IMG/VR virus record: IMGVR_UViG_3300006145_000006
Span: 2,480-66,479 of that record
Length of the DNA stretch: 64,000 nt
From: a virus
Lineage: Duplodnaviria > Heunggongvirae > Uroviricota > Caudoviricetes
Reading direction: 5' to 3' (one strand)
Part shown: piece by piece, positions 254 through 58,747 of the stretch
Layout of the letters: every line of letters begins with the position of its first letter
Position numbering within the stretch: the first letter of the stretch is position 1
Position numbers and translations under genes: made by a program
Notes under the pieces: generated by a model
The model's input: the letters and a program-made list of their open reading frames with translations, nothing else
The model's database searches: none
Told to the model about the DNA's origin: nothing

Positions 254-712
254 CTACACTTGTAAAGCCCTTTTTATGCGTTTTGTAAGATTTTTCATGT
301 CGACAGGGTCAACATGGTCGATATACTTTCCCAGTCGGATTTTACTAATGCATCTAATGTCTTCACATTGGGCGGCGGAGTCATACTTGAGCTTGTATTT
401 ACTTTTGTAGAGAACATAGTGCCAATCATATTGAAGCAGTTTCTTTGCTTTGTCCGCCCACTTAACATTTTTAGACAATGGGATCACCACTATATTCCCA
501 CTTCGACCATTAATTTGGTCAATCGATACAACGACACAAGGCCTAGGTTCAAGTCGGCTCTTTTCATGGCCTATATTTTGGCCGAGGAAACAAGCATATA
601 TGTCGCCGCGTTTAACTTTTGTTGGCGGGATCGGTGTCATTATGAACCTGTCTTGTAATTTAATCGAATATGCGAGCCAACGGGCAAGATTTTCAACAAC
701 ATTAACTGGCAC
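254..712 (-). CDS. MazF/PemK-family endoribonuclease toxin (GTG start at 710-712)
   Basis: 152 aa. N-terminus VKRGDIY...RPCVVVS matches the MazF/EndoA motif (VKRGDVYFADL...VRPVLVI). No MazE-like small ORF lies in the 115-nt gap upstream. Confidence 0.7.
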   Translation of the reverse strand: MPVNVVENLARWLAYSIKLQDRFIMTPIPPTKVKRGDIYACFLGQNIGHEKSRLEPRPCVVVSIDQINGRSGNIVVIPLSKNVKWADKAKKLLQYDWHYVLYKSKYKLKYDSAAQCEDIRCISKIRLGKYIDHVDPVDMKNLTKRIKRALQV

Positions 713-11980: not shown

Positions 11981-13132
11981 GTGGCTCTGCCAAAAATCAC
12001 CTCGGCGTTCTTAAATTTGACCAACGCCTGCTGTCTGGCCTGCAAGTATTGCTTTGTGCATCAAAGTCCAGAGCATATGACATTGCAGGTCGCCAAGGAC
12101 GCGGCGGATTTTTTAGCCGCAAACGCAAAAGCACAGGGAGAAATTCCATCGATTAATTTCTTCGGCGGAGAGCCGATGCTTCGATATGAACAGGTGATCG
12201 TGCCGCTGACCCTTTACATCCGGGATACCTATGGGGATCATTTTAACCTTAGCATGACGAGCAACGGAATGTTATTTACGGAAGACCGTCTGTCCTTTAT
12301 GAGGAAGCATGGGGTCTCTCTTCTTTTCTCCATGGATGGCGGACGCGAGGTGCAAGACATGAACCGCCCAAGGGTTGATGGAGGTTCCAGTTTTGAGACG
12401 CTGGAGAAAACCATACCCTTGATTTTGCAATATTACCCGGAGGTCATGTTCCGCGCGACGGTGAACGAAGAAACGCAGGATAAGCTTTTTGACAGCATTC
12501 TGTTTGCAGAACGCCACGGGTTCAAAACCTTTTTTGTGATGCCGGACTGTTTTGCCGTTTGGAAAACCACACACGGACTTGACAGAGAAATGCGGAAGTA
12601 TTCCGATCACTACATCGACTGTTTGCGAGGTAGCGTTACACCCATTTACTTCTCGCAGTTGGAAAAATACTTCTCAAGAATCAGGCAATATAACCGTACC
12701 GTTATCAACAACTCCATGCGAGACTTCGATGGGTGCAAAGCCTGCGGAAAGTGCGGGCTCGGGTCAAACAAGTTTGCCGGCATCAACATCAACGGAGATG
12801 TTACCTCATGTCAAGAGTTCTTCTCTCGCACGGACGACAAGTTCTTGATCGGCAACATCTATACCGGGATCAACGACAATCTCCGGGCGCAGCTTATTGA
12901 GGAATTTGATTCCTCACCTGTCTATGGGAACAATTGCGAGGCTTGCCCGCTCAACAGGATTTGTGTTGGTGGTTGTGTTGCAAACAACTATATGATTACA
13001 GGAGACATACACCACGTTCCTGATATTTATTGCCATTGGGAGCGGCTTCTCTTCGGAGAGGCCGTTTATATTATGCAGGTTCTGGGTGAGGAGCGAAACG
13101 AGGCGTTTGCTCAAAGATGGTGCATGGCATGA
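11981..13132 (+). CDS. radical SAM / SPASM-domain peptide-modifying enzyme (ScfB/anSME-like maturase)
   Basis: GTG start with an AAGGAGGTG SD. Canonical CxxxCxxC (NACCLACKYCF). C-terminal SPASM cysteines (CKACGKCG...CEACPLNRICVGGCVANN). Confidence 0.85.
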   Translation: MALPKITSAFLNLTNACCLACKYCFVHQSPEHMTLQVAKDAADFLAANAKAQGEIPSINFFGGEPMLRYEQVIVPLTLYIRDTYGDHFNLSMTSNGMLFTEDRLSFMRKHGVSLLFSMDGGREVQDMNRPRVDGGSSFETLEKTIPLILQYYPEVMFRATVNEETQDKLFDSILFAERHGFKTFFVMPDCFAVWKTTHGLDREMRKYSDHYIDCLRGSVTPIYFSQLEKYFSRIRQYNRTVINNSMRDFDGCKACGKCGLGSNKFAGININGDVTSCQEFFSRTDDKFLIGNIYTGINDNLRAQLIEEFDSSPVYGNNCEACPLNRICVGGCVANNYMITGDIHHVPDIYCHWERLLFGEAVYIMQVLGEERNEAFAQRWCMA

Positions 13133-18294: not shown

Positions 18295-19386
18295 ATGGCT
18301 GTTTTACGTGTTCAGGAAAATATCAAGAAAGAAGACGGAACTTATGATACAGTACATAAGGAAACTGAGGCCAGCTTGGTTTTGTTTGATGATAATGAAA
18401 CATTCCAGCAAAAATATGATTCTGGGGAGTTGACTGGGACAGACGGCTCTAGTGGCAAGTCCGCCTACCAGCAAGCGGTTGAGGGTGGCTATACTGGGAC
18501 GGAGTCGGAATTTAACGCCATACTGGCGAGCGGACCGTGGTTGCCGACAGCAGGAGGAAATATGTCTGGGAAAATTTCTCTTCCAAGTGGAAAACCTGGT
18601 CTTAGCGGTGGGCTTTCCAATATTACGTTTGGAACAGGCCCAGACGGTGAAGACATTTTTATTGAAACATATCACGGTGGCGGGACTGTTGATATCGATG
18701 GTAAAGTTGAAGCAAAATCGATACAGCTCAAGGATGAAAACGTTGTAACTTCTTCCAGCCCAAGTAGCATATTGACAACCAAAAAGTATGTGGATGAAAA
18801 TAGAGGACTCCCAATTTTGGGTGGAGATATGCAAGGTATGATTGATATGACCAATCATGCTATCACCGGGTTACCTAGCCCCACAGCCCCTAGTGATGCA
18901 GTAAACTATCACCAACTGGTTTTGGGACAGCTTAGATGTACTCCTTTATTATTAGAGTTTTATATGGAAGAGGAGTATAGTCAAGCAAAGACACTTGCTT
19001 TCAGAGATGTAGTTTATGGAACTCTTAATAATCTAGGCTACTCCTATGATAGTAAACATGCTATTATTCTAGATATTTTTTATGGTAATACAGGCTTTTT
19101 GCTTTTTGGCAACCAAGGCATTAGGTGGAAAAGTATTCGTATATATGCTCCTAATTATGCAACTATATTTTCAGAGTGGAGTGTAGGAGGTAGTGCTTTA
19201 ACTGCTGAATATAACTCAAGCTCTACTGGCGGATTAAAACAGAAAACTTTTGTAGGTAAATATCAAGCTCCGTACTTATATGTAGACATTTCTGACTTTA
19301 ACTATGCGGCAGCTGGATTAAAAATAAGTGGTAAAATGCCTGTATTTTATGGTTCAGAATATACAGATTGGAGTGCATCCTTGTGA
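18295..19386 (+). CDS. tail fiber / receptor-binding protein (mosaic: AT-rich C-terminal third)
   Basis: Phage fiber motifs GKSAYQQAVEGGYTGTESEFNAILAS, LPTAGGNMSGKISLP and TTKKYVDE. GC drops sharply after ~18.9 kb. Confidence 0.7.
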   Translation: MAVLRVQENIKKEDGTYDTVHKETEASLVLFDDNETFQQKYDSGELTGTDGSSGKSAYQQAVEGGYTGTESEFNAILASGPWLPTAGGNMSGKISLPSGKPGLSGGLSNITFGTGPDGEDIFIETYHGGGTVDIDGKVEAKSIQLKDENVVTSSSPSSILTTKKYVDENRGLPILGGDMQGMIDMTNHAITGLPSPTAPSDAVNYHQLVLGQLRCTPLLLEFYMEEEYSQAKTLAFRDVVYGTLNNLGYSYDSKHAIILDIFYGNTGFLLFGNQGIRWKSIRIYAPNYATIFSEWSVGGSALTAEYNSSSTGGLKQKTFVGKYQAPYLYVDISDFNYAAAGLKISGKMPVFYGSEYTDWSASL

Positions 19387-20138
19387 TCAAATTAGGAGCT
19401 GTTTTACTTATTCGTGATGAGAATGAATACCTCCCTGAGTGGCTAAAGTGGCACGCGGCCCAGGGGGTAGAGCATTTCTATATCTATGATGACAGCAGGG
19501 AGTCCTCTGTACCGGACGTGCTGGGGGAGTACGCTACCATGTGTACGGTGCGGGACGCGACGCGGTATCAGTATCACCTTCAATTTGAGGCATACATCGA
19601 TGCGTTGCGACGATTCGGTCACGAGACTGAGTGGATGGCGTTTATCGATACCGACGAATTCCTACGTAGCGTAAATGGAATGGCTATTACCAGCATTTTG
19701 GATGACACGCCAGATAACGCGGCAGCGGTATTGTGCCCGTGGGTAGTTTACAACGCCAACGGGCATGTGACTCAAACAAGCGGAGCGGTGCGGGAACGAT
19801 TTACACAAACTGTCGATTGGCCACTAAAGAACCCCTGCTGGAAGAGCATTGTGCGACCCACGCTGGTTCAGGCAATGTCGGCACACATCCCTATCAGGAT
19901 GTCGAGTGGGGCGATTATAGTAGACACTAATGGCGTAGAGGTCGAAGATAGATACACACTGCCATCGGACAAGCTAGTAATTGACCACTACTATACTAAA
20001 AGCTATGAAGAGTGGGTAGAGCGTTTAGCTAAGGGAAGTTGTGACCCTTACAGTGCTAGAGAAATGGAGTGGTTTACCCAGCTCAATCCCGACTTGGAGG
20101 ATGAGGTGGCAACCTATGAGGAAGGTGTTAACGTTTGA
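19383..20138 (+). CDS. glycosyltransferase, GT92/DUF23-like (GT-A fold)
   Basis: HFYIYDD and FIDTDEF motifs. GTG start with a GGAGTG SD (the ORF track begins at 19368). Confidence 0.6.
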   Translation: MIKLGAVLLIRDENEYLPEWLKWHAAQGVEHFYIYDDSRESSVPDVLGEYATMCTVRDATRYQYHLQFEAYIDALRRFGHETEWMAFIDTDEFLRSVNGMAITSILDDTPDNAAAVLCPWVVYNANGHVTQTSGAVRERFTQTVDWPLKNPCWKSIVRPTLVQAMSAHIPIRMSSGAIIVDTNGVEVEDRYTLPSDKLVIDHYYTKSYEEWVERLAKGSCDPYSAREMEWFTQLNPDLEDEVATYEEGVNV

Positions 20139-20362: not shown

Positions 20363-21229
20363 ATGAATCATAAAGATCTTACAGTCAAGCGTTTGCTGGA
20401 CACCGCATCGGATGAGGTGGGCTATCTGGAAAAGAAGTCCGCCGCCAATCTGGACGATAAGACCGCCAACGCCGGGAACAAGAACTACACCAAGTATGCC
20501 AGCGACCTGGATGCCATCAAGGGGTTCTACAACGGGCGCAAGCAGGGGAGCTCTTGGTGCGACGTGTTTGTGGACTGGTGCTTTGTGCAAGCCTTTGGGG
20601 TGGAGGTGGCCCTGAAGCTCCTGTGTCAGGTCATGGGCGGCTGCGGGGCGGGGGTAAAGTACTCCGCCCAGTATTTCAAGGCGAAAGGACAGTTTATTTT
20701 CAAAGACCCAAGCCCCGGCGACCAGATTTTCTTTGTGCGGCGGGACAAGGCGGGCAACATCGCCGCATGGCTTCACACGGGCATTGTAGAGAAGGTAGCG
20801 GGCGGGTATGTCTACACCATTGAAGGCAACACCGGCGGCACGTCCGGGGTGGTGAGCAACGGCGGCGGGGTGTGTCGCAAGAGGTACACGCTGAACAGCT
20901 CCAGCATAGGGGGGTATGGCCGCCCGGACTGGAGCTTGGTGCCGCAGGAGATAACCGCGCCACCCAGACAAGACAAAATGGAGGATGATGACATGATGGA
21001 TGTGACCAAGTTCGAGGAGCTTTTTAACGAGATGCGTCACGAGCTTCAGGACAATGACAGCGGCAAGTGGAGCGAAGAAGCTCGGCGGTGGGCGATTTCC
21101 TCTGGTCTAGTGGCCGGGAACGGCACTCAAATCAGCGGGGAGCCCAACTACATGTGGGAAGATATTCTCACCAGAGAGCAGCTTGTGACAGTGCTCTACC
21201 GCTTTGCAAAGTTGATTGGACAAGCATAA
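20363..21229 (+). CDS. endolysin: N-terminal CHAP peptidase + C-terminal SLH-like wall-binding domain
   Basis: CHAP motifs (NYTKYA...GSSWCDVFVDWCF...HTGIV...YTIEGNT). SD GGAGGTG. Confidence 0.8.
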   Translation: MNHKDLTVKRLLDTASDEVGYLEKKSAANLDDKTANAGNKNYTKYASDLDAIKGFYNGRKQGSSWCDVFVDWCFVQAFGVEVALKLLCQVMGGCGAGVKYSAQYFKAKGQFIFKDPSPGDQIFFVRRDKAGNIAAWLHTGIVEKVAGGYVYTIEGNTGGTSGVVSNGGGVCRKRYTLNSSSIGGYGRPDWSLVPQEITAPPRQDKMEDDDMMDVTKFEELFNEMRHELQDNDSGKWSEEARRWAISSGLVAGNGTQISGEPNYMWEDILTREQLVTVLYRFAKLIGQA

Positions 21230-21545: not shown

Positions 21546-21890
21546 ATGAGTGAATTTCTGAGCATTGTGATCAAGTGTGTTGGTGTGATCGCGGTTGCCG
21601 TTGTCACCTACGTGGTCGTTCCTGCCATCAAGGAATGGCGCAACAACAAGCTGACTGCCTCCCAGCAAAACCAGCTTACCTTCTGGGTGGAGACTGGCGT
21701 TCTGTGGGCAAAGCAGTGGCTCCAGAGTGAGACAGGGGAGCAGAAAAAGGCGCAGGTTATGGATTGGGTACGGTTTAAGGTCAACGAGCTTGGCCTACCC
21801 TTCTCTGACGAAGATATCGATAAGTGCATCGAGGCAGTCTACAGCACCGTGAAGGATGTTGTGGATGTGACTACCGGAAATGTCGCCTAA
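21546..21890 (+). CDS. phage holin family protein (1 N-terminal TM + charged C-terminus)
   Basis: SD TAAGGAGAA. TM segment VIKCVGVIAVAVVTYVVVPAI. Confidence 0.6.
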   Translation: MSEFLSIVIKCVGVIAVAVVTYVVVPAIKEWRNNKLTASQQNQLTFWVETGVLWAKQWLQSETGEQKKAQVMDWVRFKVNELGLPFSDEDIDKCIEAVYSTVKDVVDVTTGNVA

Positions 21891-22441: not shown

Positions 22442-22726
22442 TCAAAACGGCCGTGGGGTCCCGTCCTCCATGATACCAACAGAATTACACTTCTTGGATG
22501 TAAGTACAAACGCGGGCATTTGATGGGTCCCGTCCTCCATCGTAAAACTGCGCCCGTGCGAAGGCAGTTTCCAAATCGGCACTCCTTCGCCGTCAACAAT
22601 GTCGGGGTATAGCTCAGATGCCTTTGCCCGAATCAGACCGATATCTGAACTTCGCCCGGTTGCTTCATAAATCTCAACGATTTGATCTTCTGTAAAATAT
22701 GTGTGGCGTTCCTTTATGTCGATCAT
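22442..22726 (-). CDS. hypothetical protein between lysis module and attP (lysogenic-conversion position); internal MEDGT repeat
   Basis: Start MIDIKE with a GGAGGT SD. Contains two 16-bp direct repeats (GGGTCCCGTCCTCCAT) 61 bp apart. Confidence 0.45.
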   Translation of the reverse strand: MIDIKERHTYFTEDQIVEIYEATGRSSDIGLIRAKASELYPDIVDGEGVPIWKLPSHGRSFTMEDGTHQMPAFVLTSKKCNSVGIMEDGTPRPF

Positions 22727-23220
22727 AGACACTACCTCCACAATCGTTTATAGCCTTTCTATATTGCTTTGCATTATAACATAATTTTGTTAAAATCACA
22801 AGTATGCATATGGGGGTTGTGTTGGTGGCAATACCAACTTAGCTCTTATTTTTACGTTTTTTTACCCGATAATCAGTTGTTCCGTTGTGAGGTAAGGTGG
22901 TTTTTAGACCTGGATAAATCTTCTTCCTTCTTAGCCATAACTATCCCCTCTGTTGAATTACATCAGCGCATAGTGCCCCTATGCGTTCATGTGATTTAAC
23001 AGATTGTACCACAACTTTCTGGTAACGGCAAGGATGGGACAAAACTTCCTAACCAAATTGTAGCAGTCAGGCCCGCTGTCCTTAGAGATTCAGTCATTTA
23101 GCTAGCATGAGTTTCCTAACCGTTTGCTAACCAAAGCATGAATTTTTACATTTTGGACGAACCACTTGCACCGCAAGAACTTCCCAATTCAAAACCCCGA
23201 AAGCGTTGAAAATAAAAGGA

Positions 23221-23250
23221 TTGACAGTACACATGGCATCATGATATAAT
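23221..23250 (+). promoter_or_regulatory. sigma70-like promoter TTGACA-18nt-TATAAT reading into the att core
   Basis: Consensus hexamers; a short transcript would end at the terminator 23338-23369. Confidence 0.4.
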
Positions 23251-23301
23251 ACCACACAACACAGGGTAGCATCTATGAGGTTAGACTCTGACTCTGTTTG
23301 T

Positions 23302-23329
23302 GAGGGTTCGAATCCTTCTCCCGCTGCCA
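23302..23329 (+). other. attP core candidate: tRNA 3'-end-like segment (T-arm GAGGGTTCGAATCCTTC + acceptor 3' strand + GCCA), not a complete tRNA
   Basis: T-loop/acceptor/CCA signature without a matching 5' acceptor strand. Flanked on both sides by TTCCTAACC repeats and adjacent to xis-int. Confidence 0.5.
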
Positions 23330-23337
23330 ACGGAAAA

Positions 23338-23369
23338 CCACCTTTTTCTTCGGAGAAGGGTGGTTTTTT
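23338..23369. terminator. hairpin + T6 terminator between the att core and the convergent int gene
   Basis: 10-bp stem (2 G-U) followed by TTTTTT. Also plausible as the int terminator on the - strand. Confidence 0.5.
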
Positions 23370-23421
23370 GTATCTTTTGGCGCGGATTAAGCTTTTCTGC
23401 CGAGAGCTTCCTAACCATTTC

Positions 23422-24588
23422 CTAACCGTTTGCTATGCTTTTGTCTGGAGAGCCCAACACGGAGTCCAAAATTTGAGCGGGGACAATTTTTGCCTCGGCC
23501 AGCAAACCGCCGTAGTATTCATCTGTAGTGGCGTAGCTTTCATGGCCCAACCAGTTTTGGACTGACTGCATGGTGGCTCCGTTGGAGAGAAGCAGAACGG
23601 CGTTGGTGTGCCTGAGATCATGGAAGCGGATCACACGCAAGCTGTTTTTTCGCAGGAACTTTGGGAAGTTCCAGGAGATATAGCCCGGGGTAATGAGGTT
23701 TCCGATCTTGTCCACACAAACAAAGTTTTCCCATTTGGTATTATAGCTCTCACCGCACAAAAGGCGTTGTTCCATCTGCGCTATCTTCCAATGTCGAAGA
23801 ACTCTACACTGTTCATCGGTCAGAGGGAATATCCGTTCCCCAGCCTTGGACTTTGGATGATCCCGGTAACTGTACTGACTGGAAGTCCCTTCCTGCACAA
23901 TGACGCCGGTGATCGACATGGTCTTCCTGGCGAAGTCAATATCCTTCCAGCGTAGTCCTGTGGCCTCACCACGACGCAAGCCAAACCAACAGGCCAGATA
24001 GACGGGGCGTTCCAGTTTTGTACCCACAGTGGCACTCAAAAGCGCCTGGGATTCCTCGGCGGTATAAAAGCTACCTTGAAATTTTTTGACTTTTGGGAGG
24101 ATGACTCGCTCGGCCGGATTACTTGCCACCACACCTAAACGAACAGCGTCCTTCAGAGCGGAATAGATAGCGGCTTGGTAGTGGCTGATAGTATTGGCTG
24201 ATACTCCGTCCTTTGTCTGCTTGTAGCGGTAGAAGCTCTCAATTTCGGCTACTCCGCAGTCTTGAAGGGCAATGCCACATTCGTCAAAATAGGGGGAAAT
24301 GACATTATCTATCATTTTCCTGTAGCTTCGGTACGTACTATCCTCAATACTGGGCTTCTTTCTTTCCAGCCAATCCTTCAGAAATGCAGCAAAAGACATT
24401 TCCTTGTAGTTTGGACATATTTTCTGCTTCCATTCAGCTAAAGTTTGCTCTTTTACCGCTTCTCCCGCTCGTTTTCCGTATTTGATTGGTAAGTCCGTGG
24501 GAATCCACTTCTGCTTCCTCTTGGTGCCTTGTTTCCAATTCAAGACAACATATACGGTATCGTTTTTCATTTGCAGGCTTGCTGTCAA
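23422..24588 (-). CDS. int: tyrosine integrase (phage integrase family)
   Basis: C-terminal catalytic R...HDLRHT...LGHESYATTDEYY signature. N-terminal SAM-like DNA-binding domain. Confidence 0.9.
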   Translation of the reverse strand: MTASLQMKNDTVYVVLNWKQGTKRKQKWIPTDLPIKYGKRAGEAVKEQTLAEWKQKICPNYKEMSFAAFLKDWLERKKPSIEDSTYRSYRKMIDNVISPYFDECGIALQDCGVAEIESFYRYKQTKDGVSANTISHYQAAIYSALKDAVRLGVVASNPAERVILPKVKKFQGSFYTAEESQALLSATVGTKLERPVYLACWFGLRRGEATGLRWKDIDFARKTMSITGVIVQEGTSSQYSYRDHPKSKAGERIFPLTDEQCRVLRHWKIAQMEQRLLCGESYNTKWENFVCVDKIGNLITPGYISWNFPKFLRKNSLRVIRFHDLRHTNAVLLLSNGATMQSVQNWLGHESYATTDEYYGGLLAEAKIVPAQILDSVLGSPDKSIANG

Positions 24589-24836
24589 AGCACATACACT
24601 CCTTCCTCGTGACAGCTTGGATTAGCCTGACTGCTACATGGTCCATTATGACATATGCCAGCAGACTTTTCAACATATTCCATCAACGCAGCTTTGGGAA
24701 TGCGGATAGCATTCCCAACCCTAAAATACCTGATTTTATTATTTCCAATCAATTTGTAGGCTGTGCTTCTTCCTATTTTTAGTATCTCCTGTAAATTGTT
24801 TATTGTTAAAATGTCTGGGATATTATTTGTGTTCAA
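24585..24836 (-). CDS. xis: excisionase/HTH_17-family DNA-binding protein
   Basis: LTINNLQEILKIGRSTAYKLIGNNKIRYFRVGNAIRIPKAAL is a winged-helix Xis/MerR-like fold. TTG start with an AGGAGG SD. Overlaps int by 4 nt. Confidence 0.7.
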   Translation of the reverse strand: MNTNNIPDILTINNLQEILKIGRSTAYKLIGNNKIRYFRVGNAIRIPKAALMEYVEKSAGICHNGPCSSQANPSCHEEGVYVL

Positions 24837-51847: not shown

Positions 51848-51922
51848 TGGTGGGCCTTGTCGGACTCGAACCGACAACTACACGCTTATGAGGCGTGCCT
51901 TCCGCCGTTGAATTAAAGGCCC
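51848..51922 (-). tRNA. tRNA-Met (anticodon CAT)
   Basis: Manual fold: 7-bp acceptor stem GGGCCTT/AAGGCCC; anticodon stem CACGC/GCGTG with loop CTCATAA; T-arm GTCGG-TTCGAGT-CCGAC; 3' ACCA. Confidence 0.8.
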
Positions 51923-57688: not shown

Positions 57689-58747
57689 TCAAGAGTCTTC
57701 TTTGTCATGTGTCAAGCCTTCTTTCTTTTCAAATTCCTCGATTGCCTCAATACCAAGGTTAATAAAGAGGTCGATTTGTGCGAAGGTTTCCTCCTCGCCG
57801 ATATAGCGCGCCGTAGTAGATGTACTGGAGTGATTTGCCCACCTAGATGTCACCCCAGGAGGCAGTGTCCTTCTAAACAATTCGTCCGATACGTCACGCC
57901 CCGGCAACGCACCACATCCTGCGGTAATTGCTGTTTTTCTCAGGGTATGTGCAGTGATTCGATGTCCCTCGGTATCATAAAGGCCAAGCTTTTGCGCCTT
58001 CTGTTTGATGATCTCACAGATGCTATCCGGGGACAGGCCCACCGGGATATCAGAATGACGGCGTTCCCTAATCCACAATTTCCTCTGGCGGTCATAGGGC
58101 CAGTCGATGGTGGATCCATCAGTGAAGACAACGTGGATCTGATGGCGTCTGTAGTCCTCTGCGGCCGGCTCAATGCCTCTGTTGCGGTAGGCCTGTACGC
58201 GACTAGCAATTTCAAACCTTGCACTTTCGTAATCGTCACAGCGGTCTTTTTCGTCGTGGAAATAACTTTTGCGATTTCCCCTGGGCATAAAAACATAAGA
58301 GTTAAGCTCCTTTGGGGCTCCAACCCTCTGCAAATATAGGTGGGTCATACGTATAAGTGCTTCATTGCTGGTAATTCGGATGAACTTTCCCGTCTTCTGT
58401 TCCTGAAACCACCACGATGTTTTCACCATGAAATCCTCATTGAGAATGTTTTTCCACTTCAACAGAGACAAGTCGATGGCCCGGAACTTTGTGTTTAACC
58501 CAGTCACGAAGAGGAGAGCATCCCTCCACTCGCCGCAGTTCAAGAAGTCTGTCAGCATCAGATTAACTTCTTCCACAGACCGAAAAGAGTTTGCGGCCTT
58601 CTTGCCTTCTTGCTCCTGTTGAACCGTCTCTTCGCGGTCGTCCCATTTATGGACTTTCTTATTTCTAAACCGGGGTGTGCCCATACTAGGCAACAGGATG
58701 ATGTTGTTGCGCTGTTCCAGGACCGTTGCTTGCGGCATTCTCTCCAC
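57689..58747 (-). CDS. second tyrosine recombinase (phage integrase family) inside the early region
   Basis: C-terminal HTLRKTAITAG...ANHSSTSTTARYI (HxxR...Y). Confidence 0.75.
   Translation of the reverse strand: MERMPQATVLEQRNNIILLPSMGTPRFRNKKVHKWDDREETVQQEQEGKKAANSFRSVEEVNLMLTDFLNCGEWRDALLFVTGLNTKFRAIDLSLLKWKNILNEDFMVKTSWWFQEQKTGKFIRITSNEALIRMTHLYLQRVGAPKELNSYVFMPRGNRKSYFHDEKDRCDDYESARFEIASRVQAYRNRGIEPAAEDYRRHQIHVVFTDGSTIDWPYDRQRKLWIRERRHSDIPVGLSPDSICEIIKQKAQKLGLYDTEGHRITAHTLRKTAITAGCGALPGRDVSDELFRRTLPPGVTSRWANHSSTSTTARYIGEEETFAQIDLFINLGIEAIEEFEKKEGLTHDKEDS

What the first reader, a model, noticed from the sequence alone, without database searches (positions are those of the whole stretch)
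23050..23440. Apparently intact attP (tRNA 3'-end-like core + repeated arm motifs) between lysis module and xis-int
A 28-nt segment ending in ...GGTTCGAATCCTTCTCCCGCTGCCA has a T-arm, a 3' acceptor strand and a discriminator-CCA. No complementary 5' acceptor strand exists upstream, so it is a tRNA 3' fragment, which is the classic core of tRNA-targeting integrases.

The segment is flanked on both sides by at least 4 copies of TTCCTAACC(G/A)TTTGCTA-like motifs, consistent with arm-type sites. The xis-int pair converges on it.

Phage genes lie on both sides: tail and lysis to the left, early genes to the right. The site is therefore unrecombined attP, which means this sequence is a non-integrated phage genome (or an episomal/phage-plasmid form) rather than a prophage integrated through this site.

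A consensus promoter (TTGACA-18-TATAAT) fires into the core, and a terminator follows it. This would generate a ~90-nt RNA with a tRNA-like 3' end.
Basis: partly seen in the sequence, partly recalled or inferred. Interest (0 to 1): 0.6.

Follow-up and report, generated by a model that had tools for sequence, protein, structure and literature searches.

The report
Phage attachment site targeting tRNA-Gln
This is the ordinary, unrecombined attachment site (attP) that a large temperate phage of gut Oscillospiraceae uses to insert into the host tRNA-Gln(CUG) gene; the only unusual feature is a perfect promoter that the phage carries in front of its tRNA fragment.

Summary
Window 23283-23330 is a 47-48 nt exact copy of the 3' part of the Oscillospiraceae tRNA-Gln(CUG) gene, running from the last 3 bp of the 5' anticodon-stem strand to CCA. 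No tRNA folds here.

Five direct TTCCTAACC-type repeats flank it (four exact; 0.39 expected in the whole window). Downstream lie a strong terminator, a catalytically complete three-domain tyrosine integrase and an HTH_17 Xis-like gene. Phage genes lie on both sides.

A relative whose Int is 69% identical is found integrated. There a host promoter and a complete tRNA-Gln are followed by the homologous phage terminator, arm repeats and int, which is an attL.

More distant family members sit at tRNA-Ser, Trp, Tyr, Pro or Leu genes. Where a fragment could be read (tRNA-Ser and tRNA-Trp sites), its identity starts at the anticodon stem-loop. This is the textbook anticodon-centred tDNA attP, like P22 at thrW and Islander class A, so it is a new member of a known kind.

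The odd residue is the only perfect TTGACA-N18-TATAAT in the 64 kb window, 32 nt upstream of the fragment, plus a 9-nt D-loop relic. Other attPs examined lack such a promoter. Its function is unknown; a remnant of a whole promoter-tRNA-terminator gene is my best guess.

The parts
23046..23054 (+). P-arm repeat P1 (TTCCTAACC), 237 bp left of the core block
   Evidence: Exact 9-mer. 4 copies in the window against 0.39 expected. Positions.
23113..23132 (+). P-arm tandem pair P2/P2b (TTCCTAACC gt TTGCTAACC), 11-bp register
   Evidence: The same 17-mer TTCCTAACCGTTTGCTA recurs in the P' arm.
23221..23250 (+). Sigma-70-type promoter TTGACA-18-(TG)-TATAAT reading into the tRNA fragment; predicted start about 23256-23258
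   Evidence: 12 of 12 match. It is the only perfect match in 64 kb on both strands. No promoter of 10/12 or better lies in front of the other phage-borne copies, apart from one distant 10/12 match in L001.
23263..23271 (+). AGGGTAGCA, identical to tRNA-Gln positions 15-23 (D-loop and 3' D-stem); a possible relic of a longer tRNA copy
   Evidence: Longest common substring of 9 nt; shuffle p about 0.0007 to 0.003.
23283..23330 (+). Core identity block: the 3' 47 nt of tRNA-Gln(CUG) plus 1 nt. Anticodon loop at 23286-23292, which is the probable strand-exchange region.
   Evidence: Exact match to 25 complete host genes of variant 3. Independent Logan contigs end at 23312 (ten left-side contigs) or begin at 23301 (three int-side contigs). 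For k=31 that brackets a repeat spanning 23283-23330.
23330..23371 (+). Intrinsic terminator supplied by the phage for the regenerated tRNA. It probably also ends int on the other strand.
   Evidence: 19-bp stem plus T-run. Fold z = -4.6. A homologous hairpin follows the tRNA in L036 and in the attL of L037.
23408..23438 (+). P'-arm tandem array: TTCCTAACC at 23408 and 23419, and degenerate TTGCTATGC at 23430, in 11-bp register. P'2 overlaps the int stop codon (23422-23424).
   Evidence: The array is conserved in the relative with 90% identical Int (L036) and in L160, whose Int is 54% identical.
23422..24588 (-). Tyrosine integrase (388 aa from TTG, 382 aa from ATG at 24570), with three domains
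   Evidence: PF00589, PF14659 and PF13102; phrog_1. R199, K240, H317, R320, H343 and Y353 are invariant in 27 homologues. The AF2 model (pLDDT 85.8) has an N-terminal beta-sheet plus helix. Foldseek hits Tn1549 Int and full-length lambda Int.
24585..24836 (-). Xis-like recombination directionality factor (HTH_17), overlapping the int start
   Evidence: PF12728, 49.5 bits. It is conserved upstream of int in L036, L037 and L160.

Best explanation
Window 23046-23438 is the unrecombined attP (P-O-P') of a large temperate phage of gut Oscillospiraceae, more than 64 kb long.

Proposed mechanism.
- The adjacent heterobivalent tyrosine integrase binds the TTCCTAACC arm repeats on both sides through its N-terminal domain. 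Its core-binding and catalytic domains engage the anticodon stem-loop of the 47-nt tRNA-Gln(CUG) copy.
- It exchanges strands with the host tRNA-Gln(CUG) gene (attB) in or next to the 7-nt anticodon loop.
- Integration would give an attL made of the host promoter, the host 5' part of the tRNA, the phage 3' part and the phage terminator, with int next to it. This regenerates an intact tRNA.
- It would also give an attR made of the phage P arm, the phage promoter, a scrambled 5' region and the displaced host 3' fragment.
- The HTH_17 protein would direct excision.

Because phage genes flank the site on both sides and both arms carry the same motif, the sequence represents the excised or replicating form, or an assembly of it.

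What is shown: sequence identity to the tRNA, repeat statistics, the gene set, an integrated relative, and the family-wide preference for the anticodon-loop position.

What is inferred: the exact crossover position, arm binding, and activity in this particular phage.

The strong promoter upstream of the fragment is not needed for any of this. My best guess, about 40%, is that it and the D-loop 9-mer are remains of a complete promoter-tRNA-terminator gene. That gene would have been phage-borne or captured from a host, and its 5' half has since decayed.
For: Target tRNA.
- Exact 47-nt identity to complete tRNA-Gln(CUG) genes of Oscillospiraceae.
- No foldable tRNA at this position.

Arm repeats.
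- TTCCTAACC occurs 4 times exactly against 0.39 expected, all in one orientation, on both sides of the core, in 11-bp tandem register.
- The array is conserved in the relative with 90% identical Int and in the one with 54%.

Recombination proteins.
- The Int has the complete RKHRHY set and an N-terminal beta-sheet plus helix domain. Its closest structures are Tn1549 Int and lambda Int.
- An HTH_17 Xis-like protein is encoded next to it.

Integrated relative.
- L037 reads: host gene, promoter, complete tRNA-Gln, homologous terminator, arm repeats, int.
- L117 is a related unoccupied site.

Position of the identity boundary.
- In relatives at the tRNA-Gln site the identity starts at the same nucleotide, plus or minus 1 (L160, L172, L173, L175).
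- In more distant family members whose fragments at tRNA-Ser and tRNA-Trp genes could be read, it starts at the anticodon stem-loop. Others sit beside complete tRNA-Tyr, Pro or Leu genes.

Context.
- Phage genes lie on both flanks.
- Logan unitig breaks bracket 23283-23330.
- Islander reports 3760 of 3919 islands with a 3' tDNA fragment and 2083 with an anticodon-centred attP (PMC4383910).
Against: - No lysogen of this exact phage was found, so neither attL nor attR was seen for it. Integration at tRNA-Gln is inferred from a relative with 69% identical Int and from sequence identity.
- The crossover point could not be mapped, because no polymorphism distinguishes the phage-derived and host-derived halves.
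- The N-terminal domain has no Pfam match; its arm-binding role rests on a predicted fold.
- The model does not explain the perfect promoter.
- A second tyrosine-recombinase-like ORF (57689-58747) exists, so another integration route is not excluded.
Confidence: 0.9

Rival explanations
1. The promoter-driven transcript is the functional product. On this view it is a 5'-truncated tRNA-Gln mimic (anticodon stem-loop, T-arm and CCA, about 73-115 nt) made from a strong phage promoter in both the excised and the integrated state. It would act as a decoy for a tRNA-directed nuclease or enzyme, or its transcription across the core would modulate recombination. The attP function would coexist with this role.
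For: - The promoter is 12 of 12 with an extended -10, and is unique in 64 kb.
- No comparable promoter lies in front of the other phage-borne copies. Only 3 of 24 partial copies reach 10/12: the window, a distant weak match in L001, and L051, a host gene with an internal duplication. None of 6 attP-type sites in the wider Int family reaches even 9/12.
- The region is identical in 10 independent assemblies apart from one SNP at 22976.
- A 4-bp anticodon stem and an intact T-arm could form, and a terminator follows.
Against: - The fold of the 73-nt RNA is unremarkable (z = -1.25) and is not a cloverleaf.
- The Rfam tRNA score is 16.2 bits, below threshold.
- There is no sequence variation with which to test structure.
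- Left-side relatives L172, L173 and L175, and L160, lack the promoter yet keep the attP. It is therefore dispensable for the site.
- There are no expression data.
Confidence: 0.1
2. The outward-facing promoter compensates for polar effects. After integration the phage terminator in attL would cut off genes downstream of tRNA-Gln, and the promoter at attR would restore their transcription.
For: The geometry fits: the promoter reads through the core towards host DNA at attR. Two host loci do have a tRNA gene directly downstream of tRNA-Gln (L123 tRNA-Ala, L141 a second tRNA-Gln).
Against: In 78 of 99 host loci, and in 19 of 23 loci of the matching variant, tRNA-Gln is followed directly by its own hairpin terminator. 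None of the variant-3 loci has a downstream tRNA on the same strand. The gene is therefore normally monocistronic.
Confidence: 0.07
3. The site is not a free attP. Instead it is the junction between two prophages integrated in tandem at the same tRNA gene, or it lies in a prophage that is integrated elsewhere.
For: Assemblies collapse identical tandem copies, so a same-phage dilysogen cannot be excluded. A second recombinase-like ORF exists at 57689-58747.
Against: - Both arms carry the same lineage-specific 9-mer, whereas the relative with 69% identical Int uses another motif.
- No host genes were detected among the ORFs examined on either flank, 23 kb to the left and 41 kb to the right.
- Left-side and right-side contigs co-occur in the same sample, SRR27730808.
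Confidence: 0.06
4. It is a real but unconventional phage tRNA gene: a D-armless tRNA-Gln.
For: ARAGORN in mitochondrial mode calls a 65-nt D-loop-type tRNA-Gln(ctg) at 23265-23329. A promoter and a terminator flank it.
Against: - The acceptor stem has 2 mismatches and 2 wobble pairs.
- The same mode gives 11 calls in a window with one true tRNA.
- Standard ARAGORN and Rfam reject it.
- The minimum-free-energy fold differs.
Confidence: 0.02

Closest known systems
Anticodon-centred tDNA attachment sites of tyrosine integrases (Islander class A; classic cases recalled from memory: P22 at thrW, HP1 at tRNA-Leu, pSAM2 at tRNA-Pro)
   Same: The identity block runs from the anticodon stem-loop to the 3' end of a tRNA gene (47 nt here). 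Int is encoded just downstream of, and convergent with, the fragment. The element supplies the 3' half so that the tRNA is regenerated. The preferred position within the tRNA is shared across the integrase family (PMC4383910).
   Different: The target is tRNA-Gln(CUG) of Oscillospiraceae and the phage is uncharacterised, with no relative in INPHARED. A consensus promoter and a D-loop relic lie upstream of the fragment.
Phage lambda attP architecture (arm-type sites P1, P2 and P'1-3, core C-O-C', Int plus Xis)
   Same: Repeated arm-type motifs lie on both sides of a core and differ in sequence from it. The Int has three domains with an N-terminal beta-sheet plus helix. Full-length lambda Int is a structural hit. 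An RDF gene lies next to int.
   Different: All arm copies are in one orientation and in 11-bp tandem arrays. The target is a tRNA gene rather than an intergenic site. The Xis is of the HTH_17 (MerR-like) type. No host-factor sites were identified.
Tn1549/Tn916-type integrases
   Same: Tn1549 Int is the closest solved structure (Foldseek E = 1.7e-11, TM about 0.63-0.74). It is also among the sequence hits in the PDB.
   Different: Sequence identity is only about 17%. Those enzymes serve conjugative transposons with relaxed target choice, whereas this one is a phage enzyme with a 47-nt tRNA-specific site.
tRNA-dependent lysogeny (Guerrero-Bustamante & Hatfull 2024, PMC10865867)
   Same: A tyrosine integrase targets an attB that overlaps a host tRNA gene.
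   Different: [quoted passage not shown] Here the core is 47 nt, the tRNA would be rebuilt exactly, and the only phage tRNA is tRNA-Met.

Membership tests
tDNA-targeting tyrosine-integrase attP (anticodon-centred class) | Adjacent tyrosine recombinase with the full catalytic set | tested here: met
   PF00589 at 68.6 bits. R199, K240, H317, R320, H343 and Y353 are invariant in 27 homologues.
tDNA-targeting tyrosine-integrase attP (anticodon-centred class) | Block of identity to the 3' part of a tRNA gene, beginning at the anticodon stem-loop and running to the 3' end | tested here: met
   23283-23329 is an exact match to variant-3 tRNA-Gln(CUG). The left boundary is the same in L160, L172, L173 and L175.
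tDNA-targeting tyrosine-integrase attP (anticodon-centred class) | Integrated copies show a regenerated tRNA next to int (attL) and a displaced fragment at the far end (attR) | tested here: inconclusive
   An attL was seen for the relative with 69% identical Int (L037), along with a related empty site (L117). No lysogen of this exact phage was found, and no attR was recovered.
tDNA-targeting tyrosine-integrase attP (anticodon-centred class) | Site-specific recombination between attP and attB actually occurs | not testable with these tools
   Needs junction PCR, read mapping or an in vitro assay.
Heterobivalent (lambda-type) integrase system | Arm-type repeats on both sides of the core, distinct from the core sequence | tested here: met
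   4 exact, 1 near and 1 degenerate copy of TTCCTAACC. Expected 0.39. Conserved in L036 and L160.
Heterobivalent (lambda-type) integrase system | N-terminal arm-binding domain | tested here: inconclusive
   The AF2 model shows strands 7-14 and 17-24 and helix 33-51, with pLDDT about 76-88. Full-length lambda Int aligns. There is no Pfam hit for residues 1-72, and no binding data.
Heterobivalent (lambda-type) integrase system | Recombination directionality factor encoded next to int | tested here: met
   HTH_17 protein at 24585-24836, 49.5 bits.
Functional tRNA gene | Cloverleaf with a paired acceptor stem that scores above the detection thresholds | tested here: not met
   ARAGORN finds none. 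Rfam gives 16.2 bits against 29. The minimum-free-energy fold is not a cloverleaf.
tRNA-dependent lysogeny | Short common core (about 10 bp) that fails to rebuild the tRNA, plus a phage tRNA of the same isotype | tested here: not met
   The core is 47 nt and identical to the host 3' half. The only phage tRNA is tRNA-Met.

The most novel reading that the evidence does not exclude
The attP is a living intermediate of att-site evolution. On this reading it is a complete promoter-tRNA-terminator gene, either phage-borne or captured from a host, whose 3' half is kept intact as the recombination site. Its promoter is kept perfect because it still makes a 5'-truncated tRNA-Gln-like RNA that has a function of its own, for example as a decoy for a tRNA-targeting defence or as transcriptional control of recombination.
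Probability: 0.1. Interest if true: 0.55.

Novelty: new member of a known kind. Interest (0 to 1): 0.22.

Why it matters
- It identifies the integration target, tRNA-Gln(CUG), and the likely host range for an uncharacterised large temperate phage. The hosts would be Oscillospiraceae that carry the ...CGACAGACTCTGACTCTGTTTGT... variant, such as Lawsonibacter, Intestinimonas and Pseudoflavonifractor. One protein of this phage is recorded on 42 contigs, so it occurs in many public sequencing runs.
- It delimits an Int/attP/attB set that could be used as an integration tool in these hard-to-engineer gut anaerobes.
- It shows that this tRNA is a hotspot used by several unrelated phage lineages, at two different positions within the gene.
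- Scientifically it is a textbook arrangement. Only the promoter and D-loop relic add a small clue to how tRNA-type attP sites arise.

Tried and rejected
Searches that found nothing useful.
- Known phages (INPHARED): no match to the att region and only a 62-nt hit elsewhere.
- IMG/VR relatives of the Int: at most 30% identity.
- The left-junction 20-mer TCTATGAGGTTAGACTCTGA: 0 hits in IMG/VR and 0 in the metagenome contigs. No attP or attR of close relatives could be retrieved that way.
- Exact look-up of the 382-aa Int found nothing. The 388-aa form is found only on 2-kb Logan contigs that break inside the core.

Leads that did not hold up.
- L088 looked like a related attL by BLAST, but it is an empty host site whose terminator merely resembles the phage one.
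- A D-armless tRNA: rejected, because the only support is a call in ARAGORN's mitochondrial mode and it has acceptor-stem mismatches.
- Compensation for polar effects: not supported, because host tRNA-Gln genes are monocistronic.
- Homology of the promoter region to host tRNA-Gln promoters: the best local alignment (L047) scores 21, against a shuffle maximum averaging 14.7 and peaking at 20. The similarity is confined to generic promoter features (A-tract, -35, extended -10), so capture is not demonstrated.
- ORF 23275-23565 (+): rejected as a gene. It runs through the terminator and is antisense to int.
- tRNA-dependent lysogeny: rejected.

Unexplained. GGTTAG, the reverse complement of the arm-motif core CTAACC, directly abuts the identity block at 23279-23284. 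I noted this but could not evaluate it.
Full report
**What is in the sequence.**
- Between the lysis genes and a leftward integrase lies a 1.1-kb non-coding stretch. The lysis genes are a CHAP endolysin (20363-21229) and a holin (21546-21890), both on the + strand. Two further unannotated ORFs and a small minus-strand gene (22442-22729) also lie on that side. The integrase is at 23422-24588 on the - strand.
- Standard ARAGORN finds no tRNA in this stretch. The only tRNA in the window is tRNA-Met at 51848-51922.
- The Rfam tRNA model reaches 16.2 bits at 23265-23326, against a gathering score of 29.
- TTCCTAACC occurs exactly four times in 64 kb, all on the + strand and all within 23046-23427. 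The expected number is 0.39, and 0 of 100 shuffles reach four.
- A one-mismatch copy follows at 23124. By my own reading of the sequence, a degenerate copy (TTGCTATGC) sits at 23430.
- The arms are therefore a single site at 23046, a tandem pair at 23113/23124 and a tandem array at 23408/23419/23430, in 11-bp register.
- The second P' copy overlaps the int stop codon.
- A 12-of-12 promoter with an extended -10 sits at 23221-23250, and a terminator with a 19-bp stem at 23330-23371.

**Identity of the tRNA-like segment.**
- Extraction of these loci shows the complete gene: AGCGGGATTGTGTAA(A/G/T)GGTAGCAC....GACTCTGACTC.GT.TGTGAGGGTTCGAATCCTTCTCCCGCTGCCA. This is tRNA-Gln with anticodon CUG.
- The organisms named are Oscillospiraceae and allied Clostridia, including Flavonifractor, Intestinimonas, Lawsonibacter, Pseudoflavonifractor, Oscillibacter and Vescimonas.
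- Three natural variants of the anticodon-stem and variable region exist. The window matches the third (...CGACAGACTCTGACTCTGTTTGT...; 25 complete genes) exactly from 23283 to the CCA at 23329, and usually one base further.
- The block is therefore 47-48 nt, not 28. It starts three base pairs before the anticodon loop (CTCTGAC, 23286-23292).

**Independent delimitation of the block.**
- The 94-aa protein encoded at 22442-22729 is found with 100% identity on 42 contigs.
- Ten Logan contigs from ten different runs are identical to the window from 22729 onward, apart from one SNP. All ten stop at 23312.
- The int-side Logan contigs all begin at 23301. These are two contigs carrying this exact Int and one carrying a 90% identical Int.
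- I recall, but did not check here, that Logan assemblies use k = 31. For that k, these break points are what a repeat spanning 23283-23330 would produce if it occurs in a second context in the same samples.
- The simplest second context is the host tRNA gene or the recombinant junctions. This does not prove integration.

**Evidence that the family integrates here.**
- The Int has homologues at 90%, 69%, 68% and lower identity.
- The 69% homologue lies on a 76-kb NCBI metagenome contig (L037), alongside homologues of the window's NrdD, ThyX, dUTPase and Xis genes.
- Downstream of its int, the sequence reads: arm repeats (GTCTAAAC twice, 11 bp apart), a terminator homologous to 23330-23371, a complete tRNA-Gln, a TTGACA/TATAAT promoter, and a GC-rich host gene. 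This is an attL.
- A MAG of a related species (L117) has 77% identity to that host flank and tRNA, with its own terminator and no phage.
- L160, an IMG/VR contig, has a 54% identical Int and a Xis. It shows an attP-like site with the same left boundary (T|GACTCTGAC...) and the P' array TTCCTAACCgTTTCCTAAC.
- Diverged homologues of the left-side gene (L172, L173, L175) carry other arm repeats, but the same boundary (A)GACTCTGAC.
- Family members at 31-46% identity, fetched from metagenomes, lie next to tRNA-Tyr, Ser(CGA), Trp, Pro or Leu genes. Where a fragment rather than a whole gene is present, it begins at the anticodon stem-loop.
- This matches the known rule that an integrase subfamily keeps its preferred position within the tRNA while changing tRNA. 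That rule is Williams 2002, cited within PMC4383910. Islander counts 2083 anticodon-centred sites among 3919 islands.

**The recombinase.**
- All catalytic residues are invariant in a 27-sequence alignment.
- The AlphaFold model (pLDDT 85.8) has an N-terminal unit of two long strands and a helix, followed by the SAM-like and catalytic domains.
- The best structural matches are Tn1549 Int and full-length lambda Int.
- Pfam does not recognise the first 72 residues, so arm binding is an inference.
- The upstream 83-aa HTH_17 protein is the expected Xis.

**State of the element.**
- Left of the site are a tape-measure protein, tail proteins, a radical-SAM protein, a glycosyltransferase and the lysis genes.
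- Right of the site are int, xis, NrdD, ThyX, a methyltransferase, HNH nucleases, a DNA polymerase and a primase-helicase.
- None of the ORFs examined across the 64 kb matched a host function.
- Both arms carry the same motif, which differs in the relative with 69% identical Int. A junction between two different prophages is therefore unlikely.
- A tandem dilysogen of the same phage cannot be excluded from an assembly.

**The unexplained part: the promoter.**
- The promoter at 23221 is the only perfect TTGACA-N16-18-TATAAT on either strand of the window.
- Of 116 complete host tRNA-Gln genes, 114 have a promoter matching at least 10 of 12 within 170 nt upstream.
- Of 24 partial copies, only 3 do: the window, a weak distant match in L001, and L051, which is a host gene with an internal duplication.
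- None of six attP-type sites of the wider Int family has even a 9-of-12 match.
- Between the -10 hexamer and the identity block, the 9-mer AGGGTAGCA equals tRNA positions 15-23 (shuffle p about 0.001-0.003).
- The predicted RNA does not fold as a tRNA (z = -1.25).
- The D-armless call from ARAGORN's mitochondrial mode is not credible.
- Host tRNA-Gln genes are monocistronic with their own terminators: 78 of 99 overall, 19 of 23 of the matching variant, and none of the latter with a downstream tRNA. A role in rescuing downstream host genes is therefore unlikely.
- Alignment to host promoters shows only generic promoter features.
- The unit promoter / scrambled 5' half / intact 3' half / terminator mirrors the layout of the host gene. 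My preferred reading is a decayed whole tRNA gene.
- A function for the transcript remains possible, but it is untested.

**Verdict.** The feature is a standard tRNA-targeting attP of a new phage, so interest is low. A modest curiosity remains in the promoter and the D-loop relic.

Noticed in passing
L051 (ONQJ01000070.1), around 423-468: A host tRNA-Gln gene carries an internal tandem duplication of about 24 nt (AGCGGACTCTGACTCCGTATGTGA, twice) spanning the anticodon stem-loop. It looks like a scar of integration or excision at the crossover region.
   Followed up: no
window 57689-58747 (-): A second tyrosine-recombinase-like ORF of 352 aa (PF00589 at 27.7 bits, just above the cut-off; phrog_216). 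It could be a dimer resolvase or a second integration system.
   Followed up: partly
window 22873-23031 (-): A minus-strand promoter-like site (23031-23003) is followed by a 25-nt-arm inverted repeat (22949-23003), an RBS and a 21-aa ORF (22873-22938). In L175 the same leader directly precedes the 101-aa homologue of the window's 94-aa protein. In the window about 200 bp, with a second promoter (22801-22773), seem to be inserted before that gene (22442-22729).
   Followed up: partly
window 254-712 (-): A MazF-like toxin ORF (phrog_1936, E = 1.9e-14) lies just upstream of the tape-measure gene, on the opposite strand.
   Followed up: no
window 11981-13132 and 19368-20138 (+): A radical-SAM protein and a GT92/GT2 glycosyltransferase are embedded in the tail and lysis module. 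Logan relatives show this module to be mosaic, with radical-SAM/fn3 and other cassettes in different contigs.
   Followed up: no
L001-L030 (IMG/VR) and L120, L138: The same tRNA-Gln(CUG) gene is used by several unrelated phage lineages with different left boundaries: GACTCTGAC, CTCTGAC, or only the T-arm (L006, L017, L019). One tRNA thus serves at least two crossover positions. Every phage copy brings its own terminator hairpin after the CCA.
   Followed up: partly
window 23279-23284: GGTTAG, the reverse complement of the arm-motif core CTAACC, directly abuts the tRNA identity block. It could be a chance 6-mer or part of the left core-type site.
   Followed up: no
L160 4607-5254 (+): In this IMG/VR contig a second, distantly related integrase fragment (27% identity) lies on the other side of the att site, convergent with the main int. 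It is possibly a composite or tandem element.
   Followed up: no
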